A stretch of DNA of 64,000 nt from Minisyncoccota bacterium (lineage in GTDB: Bacteria; Patescibacteriota; Minisyncoccia; Phycocordibacterales; UBA2100): NCBI GenBank assembly GCA_035500505.1, contig DATJXE010000003.1:267605-331604 (forward strand), written 5' to 3'. The notes below the pieces were generated by a model. It was not told the origin of the DNA. It saw nothing but the letters and a program-made list of their open reading frames with translations, and did no database searches. Of the stretch, positions 6,770 to 63,795 are shown piece after piece. Each line of letters begins with the position of its first letter. Position 1 is the first letter of the stretch. Made by a program: the position numbers and the translations under genes.

Positions 6770-7906
6770 ATGGCGAGTAACGACAAAAAAGCGCTCGCGC
6801 TCCACAAAAAACTCGGCGGAAAAGTGCGCATCGAGCCGGCGGCGCCGGTGCGCAACAGAAAAGATCTCGCGCTCATCTACACGCCGGGCGTTGCGGCCGT
6901 TTCCTCGCTCGTTGCCGCACATCCAGAACTCGCGCGAGAGTATACGATGAAAGGCCGCACCATCGCCGTCGTTTCGGACGGTTCGGCGGTGCTCGGCCTC
7001 GGCAACATCGGCGCTCTCGGAGCGCTGCCCGTCATGGAAGGGAAGTGCGCGATACTCAAATCGTTCGCGGGCGTTGATGCGGTGCCCATCGTGCTTGACA
7101 CGCAGGACCCGGACAAAATAGTGGAGACCGTTATCGCCGTCGCGCCGGCATTCGGCGGGATAAATCTGGAAGACATCGCCGCGCCGAAATGTTTCGGAAT
7201 AGAACGTCGCCTCATCGAAGCACTCGACATCCCCGTCATGCACGACGATCAGCACGGCACGGCGATCGTCGTTTTGGCCGCGCTCATGAACGCGCTCAAG
7301 GTCGTCGGCAAATCGCTGGAAAGCGCGAACATAGTGATAAGCGGCGCGGGCGCGGCCGGTTCCGCCGTGGCAAACCTCCTGTATGCCGCAGGCGCGAGGC
7401 ATCTCGTGGTACTCGACAGCAAGGGCATCATCGGTGTGCACCGCGCAGACCTAGTGAAACACAAGCTTGAATTGGCCGAGCGCACGAACCCGCACAAGTT
7501 ACAGGGATATTTACACCACGCACTTCCGGGCGCCGACGTCCTCATCGGCGTTTCTGGTCCCGGACTTGCCCGAGCGGCAGATATTCGCTTGATGAACAAA
7601 AAAGCCATAGTGTTCGCGCTCGCCAATCCCACTCCTGAAATTATGCCGGACGAAGCAAGGAAGGGCGGCGCGGTTGTAGTCGGCACGGGCCGCTCGGATT
7701 TCCCGAATCAGATAAACAACTCACTCGTTTTTCCCGGAATTTTCCGCGGCGCCCTCGACCATCACGTTCGTCGCATTACCGAAGCGCACAAGCTCGCGGC
7801 GGCGAAGGCAATCGCCGGACTCGTCAAAAAACCGACGGCAAACAAGATCGTTCCGGACATGTTCGATAAGAGGGTGGCGAAGGCAGTGGCAAAAGTGATA
7901 CGCTAG
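6770..7906 (+). CDS. NAD(P)-dependent malic enzyme (short form)
   Basis: IYTPGVAAV, AVVSDGSAVLGLGNIG and ISGAGAAG Rossmann motifs typical of malic enzymes. Confidence 0.88.
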   Translation: MASNDKKALALHKKLGGKVRIEPAAPVRNRKDLALIYTPGVAAVSSLVAAHPELAREYTMKGRTIAVVSDGSAVLGLGNIGALGALPVMEGKCAILKSFAGVDAVPIVLDTQDPDKIVETVIAVAPAFGGINLEDIAAPKCFGIERRLIEALDIPVMHDDQHGTAIVVLAALMNALKVVGKSLESANIVISGAGAAGSAVANLLYAAGARHLVVLDSKGIIGVHRADLVKHKLELAERTNPHKLQGYLHHALPGADVLIGVSGPGLARAADIRLMNKKAIVFALANPTPEIMPDEARKGGAVVVGTGRSDFPNQINNSLVFPGIFRGALDHHVRRITEAHKLAAAKAIAGLVKKPTANKIVPDMFDKRVAKAVAKVIR

Positions 7907-7913
7907 CACCTAG

Positions 7914-7977
7914 CCGCCCGTAGCTCAATTGGTTACCTGCCTGCCGGCAGGCAGGGAGCACCGAGCTTATGATTGGC
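7914..7977 (+). other. 5' half of an interrupted tRNA paralogue (acceptor, D-arm with 20-nt palindromic insertion, anticodon stem 5' strand plus CTTATG)
   Basis: CCGCCCG TA GCTC AATTGGTTA [CCTGCCTGCCGGCAGGCAGG] GAGC A CCGAG CTTATG; nearly identical to the intact tRNA at 8080-8153 apart from the insertion and compensatory stem changes. Confidence 0.5.
7937..7956. repeat. perfect 20-nt palindrome CCTGCCTGCCGGCAGGCAGG inserted in the tRNA D-loop
   Basis: Direct reading; a related palindrome is at 46847-46862. Confidence 0.8.
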
Positions 7978-8041
7978 AGCGAGTGGTCATTGAAAATGTG
8001 TGTCCGTCTGTAAGCACAGCTTTCATACGGGGCGCTCGGAA

Positions 8042-8068
8042 AAAATGAGAATATGGTATTCTCATTTT
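8042..8068 (+). terminator. AT-rich perfect hairpin followed by T-run
   Basis: AAAATGAGAATA tgg TATTCTCATTTT then GTT; lies between the 5' tRNA half and the nested tRNA. Confidence 0.4.
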
Positions 8069-8079
8069 GTTCCTCGCTA

Positions 8080-8153
8080 CCGTCTGTAGCTCAATTGGTT
8101 AGAGCACCGAGCTTATACCTCGGGGGTTCCTGGTTCGAGTCCAGGCAGACGGA
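8080..8153 (+). tRNA. tRNA with anticodon UAU (Ile, AUA-decoding)
   Basis: CCGTCTG TA GCTC AATTGGTTA GAGC A CCGAG CTTATAC CTCGG GGGTT CCTGG TTCGAGT CCAGG CAGACGG A; canonical cloverleaf, anticodon loop C-U-UAU-A-C. Confidence 0.8.
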
Positions 8154-8197
8154 CAGACATTTTCACTTGACCCGAGCGAACCAATCACACGAAGTAT

Positions 8198-8233
8198 CCT
8201 CGGGGGTTCTTGGTTCGAGTCCAAGCGGGCGGA
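8198..8233 (+). other. 3' half of the interrupted tRNA paralogue (anticodon stem 3' strand, variable loop, T-arm, acceptor 3' strand)
   Basis: C CTCGG GGGTT CTTGG TTCGAGT CCAAG CGGGCGG A; acceptor CGGGCGG pairs perfectly with CCGCCCG at 7914-7920 and the T-stem CTTGG/CCAAG is self-consistent. Confidence 0.5.
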
Positions 8234-8259
8234 CAAAAAGACCGTGGTACCATGCCGAA

Positions 8260-8511
8260 ATGGAATCGCGTGGAGAAAAGATATGGAACACGATAGTGCA
8301 GGTATGTTTACCGAGCCTTACGGTGCTTGGATTTTTCTTGACCGCATCGAAGCTTCCGCAATACGGTGTCATCGTCGGATTGGTCTCTGAAATTTTCTGG
8401 GCGTACGCTTCATACCGGTCGTGGAAGGAAGGACAGTGGGGGATCGCGGTCACAACGACCGTTGTGACCATTATCTTTATTTACGGGATACTCAACTACT
8501 GGTTCTTCTGA
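8260..8511 (+). CDS. small two-TM membrane protein, possible PnuC-like fragment
   Basis: 84 aa; Trp-rich TM motifs (EIFWAYASYRSW) recall the PnuC N-terminus. The upstream part of ORF 8053-8511 overlaps tRNAs and is discounted. Confidence 0.4.
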   Translation: MESRGEKIWNTIVQVCLPSLTVLGFFLTASKLPQYGVIVGLVSEIFWAYASYRSWKEGQWGIAVTTTVVTIIFIYGILNYWFF

Positions 8512-21698: not shown

Positions 21699-22376
21699 CT
21701 ACTCCAAATCACTTTTCCCGATGTTACAGACTGAACAAAGGGTCTGGAGATTTTCGAGAATTGTCTCGCCCCCGTTCGCCCATGCTTTTATGTGATCTAC
21801 ATGGAGAATGATACTTGGATCAGTGGCAGGAGAACGTCCACAATTTTTGCACTTAAAATTATCGCGCCTCATTACTACAAAACGAAGTCGCCAATTTATC
21901 TCACGCTTAGTTTTGTGTTTGGAAGAAGGTTCAACTTGTAGATTTTCAATCGAACTTTCAGAAGCGACATCTGCGTCATTATTTATATATGCTACAAAAC
22001 TTTCTAAGCCTTTCATCCATGTACCAAAGTGCTTTTTGTAGGTCCCTGCGGAGTATTTTGAGAGCGGTGGGAACATATCTGCCTGTATCGGCTGGTGCCC
22101 CAATTTTGTCCAGACCTCTTCAAGATTTTCAAAAAGCTCCTCGTCACTTACGCGAATATTTTTTTGGTGTCTTGCCATATTAAGACCCGCACGCTCGTGG
22201 GCCTTTGCCCAACCCCCTAACCTATCAGCCATGTTCGAACTATCGAATTTTCCAAACTCGTCCTGTTGCTCTCTCGTAACAAAATCCTGATTTAATTTAG
22301 CAGCAGTATTTTTCAGATCAGCGATGAGCTCATCTTCTGGCGTATTTCTATGGACTTTTTTGAGCTCAAATTTCAT
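21699..22376 (-). CDS. HNH endonuclease domain protein
   Basis: C-terminal CKNCG...HVDHIKAWANGGETILENLQTLCSVCN (HNH motif); N-terminal domain unrecognised; low GC. Confidence 0.85.
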   Translation of the reverse strand: MKFELKKVHRNTPEDELIADLKNTAAKLNQDFVTREQQDEFGKFDSSNMADRLGGWAKAHERAGLNMARHQKNIRVSDEELFENLEEVWTKLGHQPIQADMFPPLSKYSAGTYKKHFGTWMKGLESFVAYINNDADVASESSIENLQVEPSSKHKTKREINWRLRFVVMRRDNFKCKNCGRSPATDPSIILHVDHIKAWANGGETILENLQTLCSVCNIGKSDLE

Positions 22377-22442
22377 AGCCCCATCTTAGCTTGGTTATAG
22401 GAAATATGGCACTCGGTCTCATAACACCGGTGCTCAATCCTG

Positions 22443-22529
22443 CGGAGAGGGAGGGATTCGAACCCTCGGACCGGTTTCCCGGTCAACACATTAGCAGTGT
22501 GTTGCATTCGACCGCTCTGCCACCTCTCC
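22443..22529 (-). tRNA. tRNA-Ser (GCU)
   Basis: GGAGAGG...anticodon loop CUGCUAA, long variable arm GACCGGGAAACCGGTC, T-arm GAGGGTTCGAATCCCTC. Confidence 0.9.
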
Positions 22530-45235: not shown

Positions 45236-45263
45236 TGCGGGGGCGGGACTGGTCAGGGATAAT
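45236..45263. repeat. partial direct copy of the tRNA-fMet 3' end (TGCGGGGGCGGGACT) plus GGTCAGGGATAAT
   Basis: 15/15 identical to the tRNA 3' terminus at 45432-45446 (plus-strand view); 190 bp beyond the tRNA 3' end; followed by an 11-bp perfect hairpin (45261-45286) and the 20-nt palindrome GTCGCAAAAGCTTTTGCGAC. Confidence 0.6.
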
Positions 45264-45431: not shown

Positions 45432-45506
45432 TGGTTGCGGGGGCGGGACTTGCACCCGCGACCTCCAGGTTATGAGCCTGGCGAGCTACTACTGCTCCAC
45501 CCCGCT
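45432..45506 (-). tRNA. tRNA-Met (CAU), probable initiator
   Basis: AGCGGGGTGGAGCAGTAGTAGCTCGCCAGGCTCATAACCTGGAGGTCGCGGGTGCAAGTCCCGCCCCCGCAACCA; unpaired 1:72 (A.A) and encoded CCA. Confidence 0.85.
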
Positions 45507-46805: not shown

Positions 46806-46846
46806 CCGCATGCCGCCGTACGCGGGTTTCCGCGACCCCGCCTCGC

Positions 46847-46862
46847 CCTGCCGGCAGGCAGG
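46847..46862. repeat. palindrome CCTGCCGGCAGG(CAGG), relative of the 20-nt D-loop palindrome at 7937
   Basis: Direct reading; flanked by further hairpins (TTTTGCttagtgGCAAAA; GCGCATC...GATGCGC). Confidence 0.6.
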
Positions 46863-46953
46863 GGTTTTGCTTAGTGGCAAAACATCGCTCCGGCCTTCGA
46901 ATCCCACACGCGCATCGGGCAGGCGATGCGCTCCTCGCACGTCACTTCGTTTG

Positions 46954-47027
46954 TGTCGGGGGTGGGATTCGAACCCACGACCTAGCGCTTATGAAACGCT
47001 CGCTCTAACCGACTGAGCTACCCCGAC
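46954..47027 (-). tRNA. tRNA-Met (CAU), elongator type (could alternatively be Ile2-LAU)
   Basis: GTCGGGGTAGCTCAGTCGGTTAGAGCGAGCGTTTCATAAGCGCTAGGTCGTGGGTTCGAATCCCACCCCCGACA; paired G1:C72. Confidence 0.88.
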
Positions 47028-60894: not shown

Positions 60895-60918
60895 CGTCCG
60901 CCTGAGGCGGACGTTTTT
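60895..60918 (+). terminator. rho-independent terminator
   Basis: CGTCCGCC tga GGCGGACG followed by TTTTT. Confidence 0.75.
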
Positions 60919-60990
60919 GGGAGATCGTCTAATGGCAGTCGCCTCCACGGCGACCCGCCGCAAGGGCGGGGACAACTGTCCGCGTTACCG
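60918..60990 (+). pseudogene. degenerate 5' copy of tRNA-Gln with 34-nt hairpin-forming insertion in the D-loop
   Basis: TGGGAGATCGTCTAATGG (identical to the first 18 nt of the tRNA at 61008), then CAGTCGCCTCCACGGCGACCCGCCGCAAGGGCGG, then GGACAACTG (matches tRNA positions 21-29), then divergence; no 3' acceptor strand. Confidence 0.55.
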
Positions 60991-61007: not shown

Positions 61008-61078
61008 TGGGAGATCGTCTAATGGTAGGACAACTGACTCTGGATCAGTTAATCTAGGTTCGAGTCCTAGTCTCCCAG
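61008..61078 (+). tRNA. tRNA-Gln (CUG)
   Basis: TGGGAGATCGTCTAATGGTAGGACAACTGACTCTGGATCAGTTAATCTAGGTTCGAGTCCTAGTCTCCCAG; U1:A72 as in many bacterial tRNA-Gln. Confidence 0.85.
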
Positions 61079-62674
61079 CAGAGTTGGACTTTGAGAGCAG
61101 GTTTGCTCGAAAAGTCGTTGTTTTTCCTTGGTATCTATCGGTTCGAACCGTTTGTGTATCTCGCGCACCTCGTTTGAGATTTTCCTGACCGGGAATAGAC
61201 AGTTTTCCGTATCAATGCTCAGTATTTTGTTTTTGACCGTGAGGTTCGAACCGAGAGCTGCCAGAATGCTGCGACGCACCTCGAGGTTACCTTTCTCCAG
61301 CTTCCACTTCGCTTGTTCGATGAACGCGAACATCTCATCGGCTGTGTTCGCCCAACGCTCCACGCGCTCGGTCGTATTGTCGTAGTTGCTATCAAGCTGT
61401 TTCTTTTCGGCAAGTAGCTTCGCTTTCTTTTCCGCGTACTCCTCCGGCCCAATCTCTCCGGCGGCACGCATGTCGGTCAGGCCGTCGAGTTTTGCGAGAC
61501 ACGTCTTGTATGCCTTTTGTTGCGTTTGCACAAGCGCGTTACGTTGCTGGGCCTCTTTCGCATTCTGCTCCCTGAACCATTTCATCGCGAAGCTGTGGAA
61601 CTCCGGCGGGATCTCGAGCCGGTCGATCTCAGCGACGATTTGCTCCTTGAGTTTGGTTTCCTCAATACTACCTTGCGAACAGTCCGGCTTGATGCGTTTG
61701 GTGCAGTGATAGTAGACGTATCGGTGGACCTTGCCATTTTTCGGTCGCTTGAACTTCAGCTCGGCCGTGATAGCAGCACCGCACTCTCCGCAGCGCATCA
61801 TGCCGACAAAGTCGAACACATGAGTTTTTGGGCGCGGCCGGCCTTTGCGTCCGAGGATGACTTGAACTCGGTCAAACTCCTCCTCGGTGATGATGGCTTC
61901 GTGATTGCCGCGATACCAGTTGCCGGTCTTGAGCGGATACTCGAACATGCCATAGTAGACCGGGTTCGAAAAAAGATAGTACAGCGTGTTCCGGCTCATT
62001 TTCTTGCCGTTCGGCATGCGGAAACCCCAGACCCCATTCACCTCATTCAAAAGCTGCGGAACAGTGTAGGTGCCGGTCAGCATCAAGTCCCACATCTTTC
62101 TCACGAGCGGTAGTCGTTCAGGATCGCTCAACAACTTCTTGCTGCCGCGGGGAGTATGTTTGTCGTTCATGTAACCGACCGGCGCGTGGTTCGGCACGTC
62201 GCCGAGTTTCGCTTTCTTTTCGAGACCGCGCTTCACGTCTAATCCTTTTTTGTCGTTCTCCATTTTGGCTTGGCCGCAGGAGAGCGAGAGCATGAACTTG
62301 TCTATCGGAGTGTTTCGGAACGTCTGGCCCGGCGTGACTATCTCGCGGAGTTTGTCGCGGTCCATGAGGTCGATGAGTAGTGCCGCGTCCATCGCGTTGC
62401 GTGAGAGGCGATCAGCGTGCCACACGATGATGCCTTGTATTTCGCTGCGCTCTATGGCGTGCAGCATGTCGGAGAACCGCGGGCGATGGTTCGCCACCTT
62501 GGCCGACTTCGCCTCGCTGAACACGTGCTCGCTTTTTATTTTCGCACCGAGCGACTTCGCGATCTCCTCCGCTTTGTCGGCTTGCGCGTCGAGTGAGAGC
62601 ACCTGCCGGTCCTCGCTTTCAGTGGACTTGCGGCAGTAGGTTCCGTATTGGAGTTTAGTAGCTGTATCCTTCAT
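61067..62674 (-). CDS. large serine recombinase
   Basis: N-terminal resolvase catalytic domain (YCRKSTESEDRQ...SLDAQ), recombinase domain, zinc ribbon (CGECGAAI...YYHC), C-terminal coiled coil; 3' end overlaps tRNA-Gln by ~12 nt on the opposite strand. Confidence 0.9.
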   Translation of the reverse strand: MKDTATKLQYGTYCRKSTESEDRQVLSLDAQADKAEEIAKSLGAKIKSEHVFSEAKSAKVANHRPRFSDMLHAIERSEIQGIIVWHADRLSRNAMDAALLIDLMDRDKLREIVTPGQTFRNTPIDKFMLSLSCGQAKMENDKKGLDVKRGLEKKAKLGDVPNHAPVGYMNDKHTPRGSKKLLSDPERLPLVRKMWDLMLTGTYTVPQLLNEVNGVWGFRMPNGKKMSRNTLYYLFSNPVYYGMFEYPLKTGNWYRGNHEAIITEEEFDRVQVILGRKGRPRPKTHVFDFVGMMRCGECGAAITAELKFKRPKNGKVHRYVYYHCTKRIKPDCSQGSIEETKLKEQIVAEIDRLEIPPEFHSFAMKWFREQNAKEAQQRNALVQTQQKAYKTCLAKLDGLTDMRAAGEIGPEEYAEKKAKLLAEKKQLDSNYDNTTERVERWANTADEMFAFIEQAKWKLEKGNLEVRRSILAALGSNLTVKNKILSIDTENCLFPVRKISNEVREIHKRFEPIDTKEKQRLFEQTCSQSPTLLGD

Positions 62675-62688
62675 ACCTTCATTATGCG

Positions 62689-63795
62689 CTATCTTCGCGC
62701 GAGAAGCCGCTCCAAAATCGCCCTCTCTGCGTCAGTGAGGGGATAACCGCTGCCTTCGTTGGCTTGATAGTCCTTGAGTTTTTGTACGATGCGAACCGCA
62801 TCCTCCTCGCTCATGCCGCCGTAACCGTAGGAGCCAAAGGTGGTAGCGATATTCTCGTGCCCGAGGTTCAAGCTGATGGCGCGTTTTTCCTCCTCGGTGA
62901 GGCGCGTTTTGCTCATCATGCTGACGATGAGATGCCGGAATGAGTGGGGGTGGAAGTATCGCACTCCCGCATCGTGACACCTTTTTTCGAAGATCTTGCG
63001 GGCGGCATCCGTGCCATTCCAAAACGCTTTTCCCACATCGTCTTTGCTGTATCGCACCGAGCCCGCGTCGTGCAGTGTTGCAGGAAAGATGGGATCGTTC
63101 GGGCCGTACCCTTTTCGTTCAAGATACTCGTACCACTCCACGAAAAAGCGCTCTGGGTCGTCCCACCCGATCGGGAAGAACGTCGTGAGTATCGTTTTTG
63201 AGTTTTTGGTGTGAACGCCGTCGCCGGGATTTTGGTGTATCAGTCGCTTCTCTTTGTCGAAGTTCTTCATTCGGAGCGAAATGATCGCGAAGATGCGGCA
63301 GCCGGTGGTGAGGGCAAAACTGATCATCGCACGGTCGCGCCTGTCGATCTCGTTCTTTATCTCGATACCCTCGATGATCTTCTTTGCATCGTCGAAGGAG
63401 GGCGTTGCTCGCGTCGTGCCCGCCCGAGCGATGCGGGCATCACCCTTCGAGAGGCGCAAAAACTCGATCTCATTTTTGAGCACCTTGTTGCGATAGTCGG
63501 GCTGGCCGGAGAGCCATGTAAAGAAGCGCTTGAGGCGGCGCAGGTAGTTGTATTGCGACACGAGCGTGAGTTTGCCCGCCACCGTTTTGGTCTCGCGGGT
63601 TTTGAGCCAATCTCGGAAAGAAGTCGCCGTGGTTTTGTTGAAGGAACCGAAGTCCTCGTTATCGGTGAAGGTCTGCCACTGGCTGATGGCTTCCGCGAAC
63701 TTACTGACCGATGCCGGGGCGAACCCTTCGGCCCCCCGAAGATGCTCAAAAAACTCTCGCTTGAGCTGCTCGTTTTTGTAACTTGTTTTTGTCAT
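62689..63795 (-). CDS. tyrosine recombinase/phage-type integrase
   Basis: N-terminal SAM-like core-binding domain; catalytic R...HxxR...Y pattern (HPHSFRHLIV; GHENIATTFGSYGY). Confidence 0.9.
   Translation of the reverse strand: MTKTSYKNEQLKREFFEHLRGAEGFAPASVSKFAEAISQWQTFTDNEDFGSFNKTTATSFRDWLKTRETKTVAGKLTLVSQYNYLRRLKRFFTWLSGQPDYRNKVLKNEIEFLRLSKGDARIARAGTTRATPSFDDAKKIIEGIEIKNEIDRRDRAMISFALTTGCRIFAIISLRMKNFDKEKRLIHQNPGDGVHTKNSKTILTTFFPIGWDDPERFFVEWYEYLERKGYGPNDPIFPATLHDAGSVRYSKDDVGKAFWNGTDAARKIFEKRCHDAGVRYFHPHSFRHLIVSMMSKTRLTEEEKRAISLNLGHENIATTFGSYGYGGMSEEDAVRIVQKLKDYQANEGSGYPLTDAERAILERLLARR

What the first reader, a model, noticed from the sequence alone, without database searches (positions are those of the whole stretch)
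7914..8233. Intact tRNA(UAU) nested between the two halves of an interrupted tRNA paralogue
A canonical 74-nt tRNA (8080-8153) sits inside a ~220-nt gap separating the 5' half (7914-7977) and 3' half (8198-8233) of a second, near-identical tRNA. The two halves pair perfectly with each other (acceptor CCGCCCG/CGGGCGG, T-stem CTTGG/CCAAG) and differ from the intact copy only by compensatory substitutions (CCGTCTG/CAGACGG, CCTGG/CCAGG). They therefore derive from one intact, once-functional tRNA gene, not from independent fragment debris. The break is in the anticodon loop after position 37 (CTTATG | ... | C-CTCGG). Two readings are possible. (a) A tRNA gene carrying a very long non-canonical intervening sequence that itself encodes a tRNA and an AT-rich terminator hairpin. 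(b) A paralogous tRNA disrupted by insertion of a tiny tRNA-bearing element (an att-like scar). Either would be unusual in bacteria.
Basis: seen in the sequence. Interest (0 to 1): 0.8.

Follow-up and report, generated by a model that had tools for sequence, protein, structure and literature searches.

The report
tRNA gene split by tRNA-carrying insert
In this small-genome (CPR) bacterium, a tiny hairpin-shaped DNA insert has cut an isoleucine tRNA gene in two at its anticodon loop; the insert carries a complete replacement copy of the same tRNA, and inserts with the same ends split other tRNA genes in unrelated CPR genomes, so this looks like an undescribed self-compensating mobile element, not a spliced gene.

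Summary
An intact tRNA-Ile(UAU) (8080-8153) lies between the 5' part (7914-7970) and the 3' part (8198-8233) of a second tRNA-Ile(UAU). The two parts pair perfectly and differ from the inner copy by three compensatory pairs.

Reading (b), disruption by a small tRNA-bearing insert, is supported. Reading (a), a spliced gene, is not.
- No Rfam intron or ribozyme model matches the insert, and it has no bulge-helix-bulge motif.
- A37 is missing at the junction.
- A 20-nt palindrome sits in the outer D-loop.
- A relative (L260) has one uninterrupted tRNA at exactly the outer position.

The 218-bp insert (7970-7987 start, 8173-8187 end) has defined ends, TGATTGG-CAGCGAGTG and CGAGCGAA-CCAATCA, plus long inverted arms. 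It folds into a rod with the tRNA at its tip.

The same architecture splits a tRNA-Ile(UAU) in L005. Identical ends flank a tRNA-Lys(UUU) nested inside a split tRNA-Lys in an unrelated 38% GC metagenome contig (L090). The left junction is GCTTA| in three of four copies.

Best explanation: a small non-autonomous cassette that inserts into anticodon loops and carries a replacement tRNA. The enzyme and the mechanism are unknown. Only three loci (four copies) are known.

The parts
7914..7970 (+). Outer tRNA-Ile(UAU), 5' part (positions 1-36): acceptor CCGCCCG, D-arm, anticodon stem CCGAG, loop CTTAT. A relic, not a working gene.
   Evidence: The same allele is intact in L002. An intact orthologue sits at the same place in L260.
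7936..7955 (.). Perfect 20-nt palindrome CCTGCCTGCC/GGCAGGCAGG inserted in the D-loop of the outer 5' part.
   Evidence: Absent from all intact relatives. With it in place ARAGORN cannot build the normal D-arm.
7970..7985 (+). Left end of the insert: 7-nt helix arm TGATTGG (T7970 doubles as T36) followed by the motif CAGCGAGTG.
   Evidence: Identical 16 nt in L090. Covarying arm with a conserved motif in L005a and L005b.
7986..8015 (+). Leader plus a truncated copy of the first 12 nt of the inner tRNA (CCGTCTGTAAGC). 7991-8010 is the left arm of a 20-nt inverted repeat with 8146-8165.
   Evidence: I1, 95% complementary. Homologous to the L005b leader, which abuts its tRNA directly.
8013..8079 (+). 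67-nt segment bounded by the 9-nt direct repeat CCGTCTGTA (8004-8012 and 8080-8088). 8033-8079 is the native-type 5' flank of a tRNA-Ile gene and includes the AT-rich hairpin 8042-8068.
   Evidence: I3. Mean column identity 91% over window 8020-8100 against the 5' flank and start of the intact tRNA in L211.
8080..8153 (+). Inner, intact tRNA-Ile(UAU) (acceptor CCGTCTG/CAGACGG, T-stem CCTGG/CCAGG, loop CTTATAC). The presumed working AUA decoder.
   Evidence: ARAGORN. Rfam tRNA 70.7 bits, E 2.5e-15. It is the only tRNA-Ile(UAU) in the window.
8154..8172 (+). Trailer. It pairs with the leader and extends the acceptor stem.
   Evidence: Collinear with the trailers of L005 and L003.
8173..8187 (+). 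Right end of the insert: motif CGAGCGAA followed by helix arm CCAATCA.
   Evidence: Identical 15 nt in L090, and this stretch was not part of the search pattern. GAGCGA is invariant in five right ends.
8188..8197 (+). 'Tail' CACGAAGTAT: an imperfect copy of the target's anticodon stem and loop. ACACGAAGTA (8186-8195) equals positions 37-46 of the C-type tRNA-Ile of L001 and L212.
   Evidence: Origin unresolved: either a diverged target duplication or an arm carried over from an earlier host allele.
8198..8233 (+). Outer tRNA-Ile(UAU), 3' part (positions 38-73): anticodon stem CTCGG, T-arm CTTGG/CCAAG, acceptor CGGGCGG, discriminator A. A relic.
6770..7906 (+). NADP-malic enzyme gene, the syntenic anchor of the locus. 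The outer tRNA starts 7 nt after its stop codon.

Best explanation
The resident tRNA-Ile(UAU) gene that follows the malic-enzyme gene was cut in its anticodon loop, after T36. The cut was made by insertion of a 218-bp cassette (7970-8187) plus a 10-nt tail.

The cassette belongs to a small family. Each member has three features.
(i) Conserved ends: a 7-bp inverted repeat that covaries between copies, immediately enclosing the motifs [C/G]AGCGAGTG on the left and GAGCGA[A/T] on the right.
(ii) Long inverted leader and trailer arms.
(iii) At the tip, a complete tRNA gene with the same identity and orientation as the gene it splits.

The inner tRNA is the working gene. The outer halves are dead remains, and here one of them is further damaged by a palindrome in the D-loop.

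Shown: the anatomy; the empty site; recurrence of the same ends in another genome and another tRNA species; and the junction ...GCTTA| in three of four copies.

Inferred: the cassette is non-autonomous and is placed by a trans-acting, sequence- or structure-specific enzyme. The enzyme could be a site-specific recombinase or a single-strand transposase acting on the folded top strand. Carrying a replacement tRNA is what makes insertion into an essential single-copy tRNA gene survivable. In this window the cargo has since recombined with a native tRNA-Ile gene, which brought in that gene's 5' flank (8013-8079).
For: Empty site and source allele
- L260 (malic enzyme 80% identical) has one uninterrupted tRNA-Ile(UAU) at exactly the position of the window's outer gene.
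- L002 carries the outer allele intact.

Defined, recurring ends
- The window and L090 share TGATTGGCAGCGAGTG on the left and CGAGCGAACCAATCA on the right. The right end was not in the query.
- L090 has 37.7% GC against 57.5% for the window.
- In L090 the cargo is tRNA-Lys(UUU), nested in a split tRNA-Lys whose halves are 100% identical to the cargo.

Second and third copies in L005
- L005 has the same nested tRNA-Ile(UAU) arrangement, with two adjacent copies.
- Their 7-bp arms covary (TAATCGG/CCAATTA and TAATGAC/GTCATTA) while the motifs stay constant.

Partial copy in L003
- L003 keeps the inner tRNA, the trailer, the right end and the outer 3' part, collinear with the window.

Structure and size
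- All copies fold into a rod with the cloverleaf at the tip (z -5 to -9).
- Inserts of 139, 175 and 218 bp share one architecture. This argues against independent deletions of larger elements.

Context
- Flanking genes are housekeeping in all three loci.
- No intron or ribozyme family matches.
- Among relatives the locus is hypervariable.
- Other tRNA genes of this genome carry fragments, recombinase genes or homing-endonuclease genes next to them.
Against: - Only three loci (four copies, plus one partial copy) are known. None was found in the rest of the 64-kb window, in about 170 other held genomic loci, or in viral contigs.
- No candidate enzyme has been identified.
- There is no clean target-site duplication. 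The 'tails' are imperfect, target-like copies whose origin is unclear.
- How the cargo comes to match the target in two different tRNA species is unexplained.
- The fourth copy (L005b) has ...AAATA| rather than ...GCTTA| at its left junction.
- The end motifs are in direct, not inverted, orientation, unlike classical terminal inverted repeats.
- The window copy is itself rearranged (9-nt repeat, 67-nt segment), so part of the anatomy reflects later recombination.
Confidence: 0.6

Rival explanations
1. Relic of a homing-endonuclease cassette. A tRNA-gene-specific endonuclease cut the resident gene in the anticodon loop. Repair then copied in a donor allele carrying the endonuclease gene and a cleavage-resistant tRNA. 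The window has since lost the endonuclease gene. The candidate endonuclease is the 221-aa protein family found glued to tRNA-Ile(UAU) in relatives.
For: - L001 keeps a 5' part of an older tRNA-Ile that ends at the same loop position (GAGCTTG|). It is followed by the 221-aa ORF and an intact tRNA-Ile(UAU) whose 5' end overlaps the ORF's stop codon.
- The ORF family has 594 members with E<=0.001. In all 18 loci examined it lies next to tRNA-Ile(UAU).
- The window's tail ACACGAAGTA matches the ORF-linked C-type tRNA 10 of 10.
- An HNH homing endonuclease sits beside tRNA-Ser in the window.
Against: - ORF-bearing loci lack the AGCGAGTG and GAGCGA ends.
- Homing does not explain identical ends around a tRNA-Lys in L090, nor the flipped orientation there.
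- No ORF remnant is detectable in the window (tblastn).
Confidence: 0.15
2. Stacked att scars. One or more conventional integrative elements (tyrosine or large serine recombinase) integrated in the anticodon loop and were later almost entirely deleted. This left tRNA fragments and arm sequences. On this view there is no discrete small element.
For: - tRNA genes are classical integration sites (established knowledge; Williams 2002).
- The same genome has a large serine recombinase and an integrase beside tRNA-Gln, which has a 5' fragment, and a 3' fragment near the initiator tRNA.
- L003 looks like a classical 'intact tRNA plus displaced 3' fragment'.
- The tails resemble attP-type arms that imitate the anticodon stem.
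Against: - Three independent loci would have to be deleted down to the same compact architecture: the ends, inverted arms and one complete tRNA within 139-218 bp.
- Classical elements restore only the 3' segment and leave no 5' half.
- No recombinase gene lies near any of the three loci.
Confidence: 0.15
3. A functional interrupted gene. The outer halves are transcribed together, the inner tRNA is cut out, and the halves are joined or act as a paired split tRNA (reading a).
For: - The outer acceptor and T stems pair perfectly.
- Joining at 37/38 without the palindrome gives a canonical cloverleaf.
- Leader and trailer form a long helix.
- Group I introns are common in Patescibacteria tRNA genes (PMC13011429).
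Against: - No intron or ribozyme model matches at E<=10.
- 139-218 nt including a tRNA is too small for a group I core.
- There is no bulge-helix-bulge motif.
- The joined loop would have G37 taken from the insert instead of the universal A37, or only 6 nt.
- The D-loop palindrome breaks the outer D-arm.
- The outer genes of L005 and L090 cannot fold.
- The ends are flipped relative to the tRNA in L090.
Confidence: 0.04
4. Assembly artefact: a chimeric join of two strain alleles, or a collapsed repeat.
For: The window comes from a metagenome-assembled genome, and reads were not available.
Against: - The same architecture appears in independent assemblies.
- The junction sequences are specific and conserved.
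- Exact matches shared by the inner and outer copies are at most 16 nt.
Confidence: 0.03

Closest known systems
Integrative elements that target tRNA genes (tyrosine-integrase islands and prophages; anticodon-loop sublocation, Williams 2002; from memory)
   Same: They insert in the anticodon loop of a tRNA gene, keep tRNA function by bringing tRNA sequence with them, and leave tRNA fragments as scars.
   Different: They are kilobases long, encode their own integrase, and replace only the 3' segment, giving one intact gene plus one 3' fragment. Here the insert is 139-218 bp, has no gene for an enzyme, carries a complete tRNA, and leaves both halves of the target.
Group I introns in bacterial tRNA anticodon loops, including Patescibacteria (Nakagawa et al. 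2026, PMC13011429)
   Same: The same host group and the same kind of site (anticodon loop). The interruption of an essential tRNA gene is tolerated.
   Different: Those introns self-splice and match Rfam group I models. This insert matches none, is too small, and compensates with a second gene copy instead of splicing.
Archaeal interrupted, split and permuted tRNA genes (bulge-helix-bulge splicing; PMC4033280, PMC4390854)
   Same: Interruption next to position 37/38, with leader and trailer helices around tRNA pieces. Mobile elements have been proposed as the origin of split tRNAs.
   Different: This host is a bacterium (it has a tmRNA). No bulge-helix-bulge motif can be drawn, and the outer gene appears dead.
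Small non-autonomous bacterial elements (MITEs; palindrome-associated elements derived from IS200/IS605)
   Same: Size, absence of coding capacity, strong hairpin folding, a preferred short target sequence (GCTTA|), and no clean target duplication.
   Different: It carries a tRNA gene as cargo. The hairpin spans the whole element rather than sitting at each end. The end motifs are direct repeats inside inverted arms. No partner transposase is known.
Free-standing homing endonucleases in tRNA gene clusters (phage T4 SegB; intronless homing; from memory)
   Same: tRNA genes are replaced by a donor allele, and endonuclease genes sit beside tRNA genes. Compare the HNH gene at tRNA-Ser in the window and the 221-aa ORF at tRNA-Ile in relatives.
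   Different: No endonuclease gene lies in or near the window's insert, and homing does not leave a nested gene with conserved hairpin ends.

Membership tests
Group I intron in tRNA | Conserved catalytic core (P3-P9) detectable by covariance models | tested here: not met
   Rfam 15 cmscan of 7700-8500 at E<=10 found only the tRNA itself. Nothing was found in L001-L005 either.
Group I intron in tRNA | 5' exon ends in U, intron ends in G, and joining restores a 7-nt anticodon loop | tested here: not met
   By inspection. U|...G| combinations give loops of 6 or 9 nt, or an anticodon UUA. None restores CTTATAC.
Group I intron in tRNA | Self-splicing of the transcript | not testable with these tools
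Archaeal-type tRNA intron / split tRNA | Bulge-helix-bulge motif (two 3-nt bulges separated by 4 bp) at the exon-insert boundaries | tested here: not met
   MFE and manual pairing. The 5' side has 4 unpaired nt, then a 7-bp helix. The 3' side has about 11 unpaired nt. No 4-bp central helix exists.
Archaeal-type tRNA intron / split tRNA | A splicing endonuclease (EndA) is encoded in the genome | not tested
   Only 64 kb of the genome is available. The host is bacterial (tmRNA at 1069-1417).
Integrase-type att scar at a tRNA gene | Intact tRNA followed by a direct repeat of its 3' segment | tested here: met
   The 3' part 8198-8233 repeats 8118-8153 (89%, D1). The same holds in L003 and L005.
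Integrase-type att scar at a tRNA gene | A recombinase gene and element body lie between the repeats or next to them | tested here: not met
   Only 44 nt lie between the inner tRNA and the 3' part. Neighbours are malic enzyme, a small membrane protein and NUDIX. Housekeeping genes flank the L005 and L090 copies.
Integrase-type att scar at a tRNA gene | No leftover 5' half, because the host 5' part is reused in the restored gene | tested here: not met
   A complete 5' part (7914-7970) remains upstream of a complete inner gene.
MITE-like non-autonomous transposon | Terminal inverted repeats | tested here: met
   The 7-bp arms TGATTGG/CCAATCA plus the 20-nt inverted repeat 7991-8010/8146-8165. 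The arms covary between copies.
MITE-like non-autonomous transposon | Target-site duplication of fixed length | tested here: inconclusive
   The right-hand tails are imperfect 10-16-nt copies of the target's left side. Window: CACCGAGCTTAT against CACACGAAGTAT. L090: CAACTGCTTA against GCACGGCTTA.
MITE-like non-autonomous transposon | Multiple dispersed copies in one genome | tested here: not met
   One copy in the 64-kb window. Two adjacent copies in L005. The rest of the genome was not available.
MITE-like non-autonomous transposon | A related autonomous element with a transposase | not tested
IS200/IS605-derived palindromic element | Insertion 3' of a fixed short target sequence, without target duplication | tested here: inconclusive
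   The left flank is ...GCTTA| in the window, L005a and L090, but ...AAATA| in L005b.
IS200/IS605-derived palindromic element | A separate subterminal hairpin at each end | tested here: not met
   The ends pair with each other, not locally.

The most novel reading that the evidence does not exclude
A previously undescribed class of very small (about 140-220 nt), rod-shaped, strand-specific mobile elements in CPR bacteria. They insert into tRNA anticodon loops and always carry a complete copy of the very tRNA they split. Matching of cargo to target could be part of the mechanism, for example the cargo or its folded single strand guiding the choice of target, or copying of the target during insertion. 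Alternatively it could be the outcome of selection alone.
Probability: 0.3. Interest if true: 0.8.

Novelty: new variant of a known kind. Interest (0 to 1): 0.6.

Why it matters
Elements that sit inside essential genes are known to survive in two ways. They splice themselves out (introns, inteins), or they rebuild the part of the gene they displace (integrases at tRNA genes). This locus suggests a third, minimal way: bring a whole spare copy of the gene inside a 140-220-bp hairpin.

If the family is real it would have several consequences.
- It would explain some of the tRNA gene fragments and 'extra' tRNA halves seen in CPR genomes.
- It would give a route by which tRNA alleles are exchanged between lineages. 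Here that concerns the rare UAU-anticodon isoleucine tRNA that decodes AUA.
- It would offer a bacterial counterpart to the proposal that mobile elements created the split tRNA genes of archaea.
- It would warn annotators that half-tRNAs flanking an intact tRNA are not necessarily split genes.

Tried and rejected
1. Group I, group II and ribozyme identity of the insert. Rfam at gathering threshold and at E<=10 found nothing.
2. Bulge-helix-bulge or K-turn motifs in the end region. Manual pairing on the folds found none.
3. More copies of the element.
   - A regex for helix, motif and reverse-complement helix over all held loci and the window found only the known copies.
   - Two viral-contig scans gave only chance hits. 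The first, a 14-mer, was too short and was wasted.
   - The single metagenome scan gave one locus, L090.
4. Finding further nested loci through spurious ORFs that overlap tRNA plus trailer plus 3' half. This returned only ORFs over single tRNA genes.
5. Close relatives of the source genome. The nearest malic enzymes are about 80% identical, and the window's own protein could not be looked up.
7. Sigma-70 promoter and terminator scan of 7700-8400. No promoter-like site and no terminator within 7914-8233; the only two terminator-like hits, at 8309-8330, lie downstream of the feature.
8. The idea that the tail is a simple target-site duplication was set aside as unproven. It is too diverged next to otherwise intact halves.
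9. Literature. No description of a tRNA gene nested in a split copy of itself in bacteria was found in the held library.
Full report
**1. The observation**

- Seven nucleotides after the stop codon of an NADP-malic enzyme gene (6770-7906), a tRNA-like 5' part begins at 7914: acceptor CCGCCCG, D-arm, anticodon stem CCGAG, loop CTTAT.
- A perfect 20-nt palindrome (7936-7955) sits in its D-loop.
- After a gap of about 220 nt, 8198-8233 supplies the matching 3' part: C, CTCGG, variable loop, T-arm CTTGG/CCAAG, acceptor CGGGCGG, discriminator A.
- Inside the gap lies a canonical tRNA-Ile(UAU) at 8080-8153 (ARAGORN; Rfam tRNA 70.7 bits).

The outer parts are 20/22, 15/15 and 32/36 identical to the inner gene. 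Every stem difference is compensatory. Joined in silico without the palindrome, they give a perfect cloverleaf.

One correction is needed. The identity with intact genes ends at T36. The next base, G7971, belongs to the insert's conserved end. A37, which is A in every intact relative, is missing.

**2. The organism and the orthologous site**

The malic enzyme places the window in a Kaiserbacteria-like member of the CPR/Patescibacteria. The best genome hit is 76% identical, and the window's own protein is annotated 'Candidatus Paceibacterota'. No relative closer than about 80% identity exists in the collections.

At that distance the site just downstream of the malic gene is strikingly variable.

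| Locus | State of the site |
|---|---|
| L260 | One uninterrupted tRNA-Ile(UAU) at exactly the window's outer position (the empty site) |
| L002 | The outer allele, intact |
| L211 | An Mrr-type nuclease gene and an intact A-type tRNA in inverted orientation |
| L212 | A different ('C-type') tRNA-Ile(UAU) alone |
| L259, L081-L089, L254-L256 | A 221-aa ORF whose stop codon lies inside the 5' end of a C-type tRNA |
| L001 | That ORF and tRNA, preceded by a 5' part of an older tRNA-Ile cut at the same loop position |
| L003 | The window's inner allele followed by a trailer and an outer-type 3' fragment, with no 5' half |
| L214 | No tRNA |

**3. The insert has defined ends that recur elsewhere**

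The window's insert runs from TGATTGG-CAGCGAGTG (7970-7985) to CGAGCGAA-CCAATCA (8173-8187). The two 7-nt arms are complementary. Further in, a 20-nt inverted repeat (7991-8010 and 8146-8165, 95%) extends the inner tRNA's acceptor stem. The whole region folds far better than shuffled sequence (z -7).

*L005.* This MAG has a malic enzyme 69% identical to the window's. It has the same nested arrangement, outer 5' part, insert with an intact tRNA-Ile(UAU), outer 3' part. It holds two adjacent copies of the end structure. Their arms differ from the window's but remain complementary (TAATCGG/CCAATTA and TAATGAC/GTCATTA), while the motifs are unchanged.

*L090.* A scan of metagenome contigs with the left junction returned one locus, L090.
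- It comes from a 37.7% GC organism, against 57.5% for the window.
- It has the identical left end and, 175 bp on, the identical 15-nt right end, which was not part of the query.
- Between the ends lies an intact tRNA-Lys(UUU).
- Outside them lie the two parts of a tRNA-Lys 100% identical to the inner one.
- Relative to the ends, both the cargo and the target are in the opposite orientation to the window.

On the strand defined by the ends, the left flank is ...GCTTA| in the window, L005a and L090. In tRNA-Ile this is the sense strand of the anticodon loop. In tRNA-Lys it is the antisense strand. Flanking genes in all three loci are housekeeping.

**4. What the insert is not**

- No Rfam family other than tRNA matches, even at E<=10.
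- 139-218 nt including a 72-74-nt tRNA leaves no room for a group I core.
- No U|...G| pair of splice points restores a 7-nt loop with A37.
- No bulge-helix-bulge motif can be drawn on the predicted structures.
- The outer genes are not kept functional. The window's has a broken D-arm. L005's acceptor strands do not pair (4 of 7). L090's 5' anticodon-stem region is rearranged. L003 lacks the 5' part and L001 lacks the 3' part.
- The flipped orientation of the end motifs in L090 argues against a role in the tRNA transcript.

Reading (a) is therefore very unlikely.

**5. Finer anatomy of the window copy**

In L005b the leader abuts the inner tRNA directly, and the element is 139 bp. The window differs.
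- The homologous leader is followed by only the first 12 nt of the inner tRNA (8004-8015).
- Then come 64 nt, and then the complete tRNA.
- CCGTCTGTA is repeated at 8004-8012 and 8080-8088.
- Segment 8033-8079, with the AT-rich hairpin, is the native-type 5' flank of a tRNA-Ile gene. Mean column identity is 91% over window 8020-8100 against the flank and start of the intact tRNA in L211.

I infer that the cargo has recombined with a chromosomal tRNA-Ile gene and picked up that gene's upstream region.

To the right of the end, a 10-nt tail (CACGAAGTAT) precedes the outer 3' part. Similar tails occur in every copy. They look like imperfect copies of the target's 5' anticodon stem and loop, and they are specific to the target: Ile-like in three copies, Lys-like in L090. 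The window's ACACGAAGTA is identical to positions 37-46 of the C-type tRNA. Whether these tails are diverged target duplications or arms inherited from an earlier host allele is unresolved.

**6. Mechanism: shown and inferred**

*Shown.*
- A resident tRNA gene was split after T36 by a compact cassette with conserved ends.
- The cassette carries a complete tRNA of the same identity and orientation.
- The same ends occur with another tRNA species in an unrelated genome.
- Uninterrupted sites exist.

*Inferred.*
- The cassette is, or was, mobile and non-autonomous.
- It is inserted by an enzyme that recognises the ends, and it prefers GCTTA| in anticodon loops.
- The replacement tRNA makes the insertion survivable.
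- Co-orientation lets the cargo use the resident gene's transcription.

The end motifs are direct repeats inside inverted arms. On the top strand they can form GC/GC plus tandem G·A pairs, which the other strand cannot. This hints at recognition of a folded single strand. It is speculation.

Two more conventional variants remain possible. One is a decayed homing-endonuclease cassette of the ORF221 type. The other is stacked scars of ordinary integrative elements. The first does not explain the shared ends around tRNA-Lys. The second does not explain why three independent loci have the same compact architecture.

**7. Comparison with known systems, and novelty**

The closest known things are:
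- tRNA-targeting integrative elements (same site and same logic of restoring the tRNA, but large, autonomous, and restoring only the 3' segment);
- group I introns of Patescibacteria tRNA genes (same site and hosts, but self-splicing; PMC13011429);
- archaeal split and interrupted tRNAs (similar geometry, different domain and machinery);
- MITE/PATE-type small elements (similar size and folding, no cargo).

Searches of the held literature found no bacterial case of an intact tRNA gene nested in a split copy of itself, and no element with these ends.

I rate it a new variant of a known kind, a small non-autonomous insertion element at a tRNA gene. It rests on three loci, so it is provisional.

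**8. Verdict**

- Observation: confirmed.
- Reading (b): supported and extended.
- Reading (a): not supported.
- Interest: 0.6. The locus itself is a dead gene around a live one. The recurring, self-compensating cassette is unexpected and directly testable by a wide end-motif search, read mapping and small-RNA sequencing.

Noticed in passing
[not shown]
   Followed up: partly
window 7936-7955 and 46843-46862: A perfect 20-nt palindrome CCTGCCTGCCGGCAGGCAGG is inserted in the D-loop of the outer tRNA half. A second 17/20 copy lies about 90 nt from tRNA-Met (46953-47027). Two copies of the 12-nt core is more than expected by chance (mean 0.19). It could be a tiny palindromic insertion or a repair footprint.
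   Followed up: partly
window 60918-60937, 61008-61079, 61067-62674 (-), 62689-63795 (-): tRNA-Gln is preceded by a 20-nt copy of its own 5' end, 70 nt upstream. It is overlapped at its 3' end by a large serine recombinase gene (Resolvase, Recombinase and Zn-ribbon domains), which is followed by a tyrosine integrase gene. This is probably the edge of an integrated element that runs off the window.
   Followed up: partly
window 21699-22376 (-) next to tRNA-Ser 22442-22529 (-): An HNH endonuclease with homing-endonuclease-associated repeats lies directly beside tRNA-Ser(GCU). In L015 a tRNA-Ser(GCU) has a 23-nt copy of its 5' end about 100 nt upstream (8306-8328).
   Followed up: no
window 45236-45250 and 45432-45506 (-): The initiator-type tRNA-Met is followed about 190 nt downstream by a 15-nt exact copy of its T-loop and acceptor 3' end. 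This is a classical att-type scar.
   Followed up: no
Locus downstream of the malic-enzyme gene in L001-L005, L081-L089, L211-L214, L254-L260: Among genomes whose malic enzymes are 69-81% identical to the window's, the tRNA-Ile(UAU) site takes at least seven different states. There are three tRNA alleles (A, B, C). The gene occurs with or without the 221-aa ORF, with an Mrr nuclease, inverted, nested, or absent. The site is a hot spot of gene replacement for the rare UAU-anticodon isoleucine tRNA.
   Followed up: partly
window 8173-8180 and 7977-7985; L005:2304-2316: The end motifs consist of GAGC/GCGA repeats (GCGAGCGAGCGAA in L005a). From memory only, these recall the GAGC-repeat Rep-binding elements of parvovirus hairpin ends. 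No test was possible.
   Followed up: no
L123:2207-3348, L130:613-1754, L153:1370-2511 (viral contigs): Three viral contigs share a 1142-bp stretch bounded by CAAAGGA-CAGCGAGTG and GAGCGAC-TCCTTGG. These came from the relaxed end pattern and are probably a conserved phage gene, unrelated to the finding.
   Followed up: no
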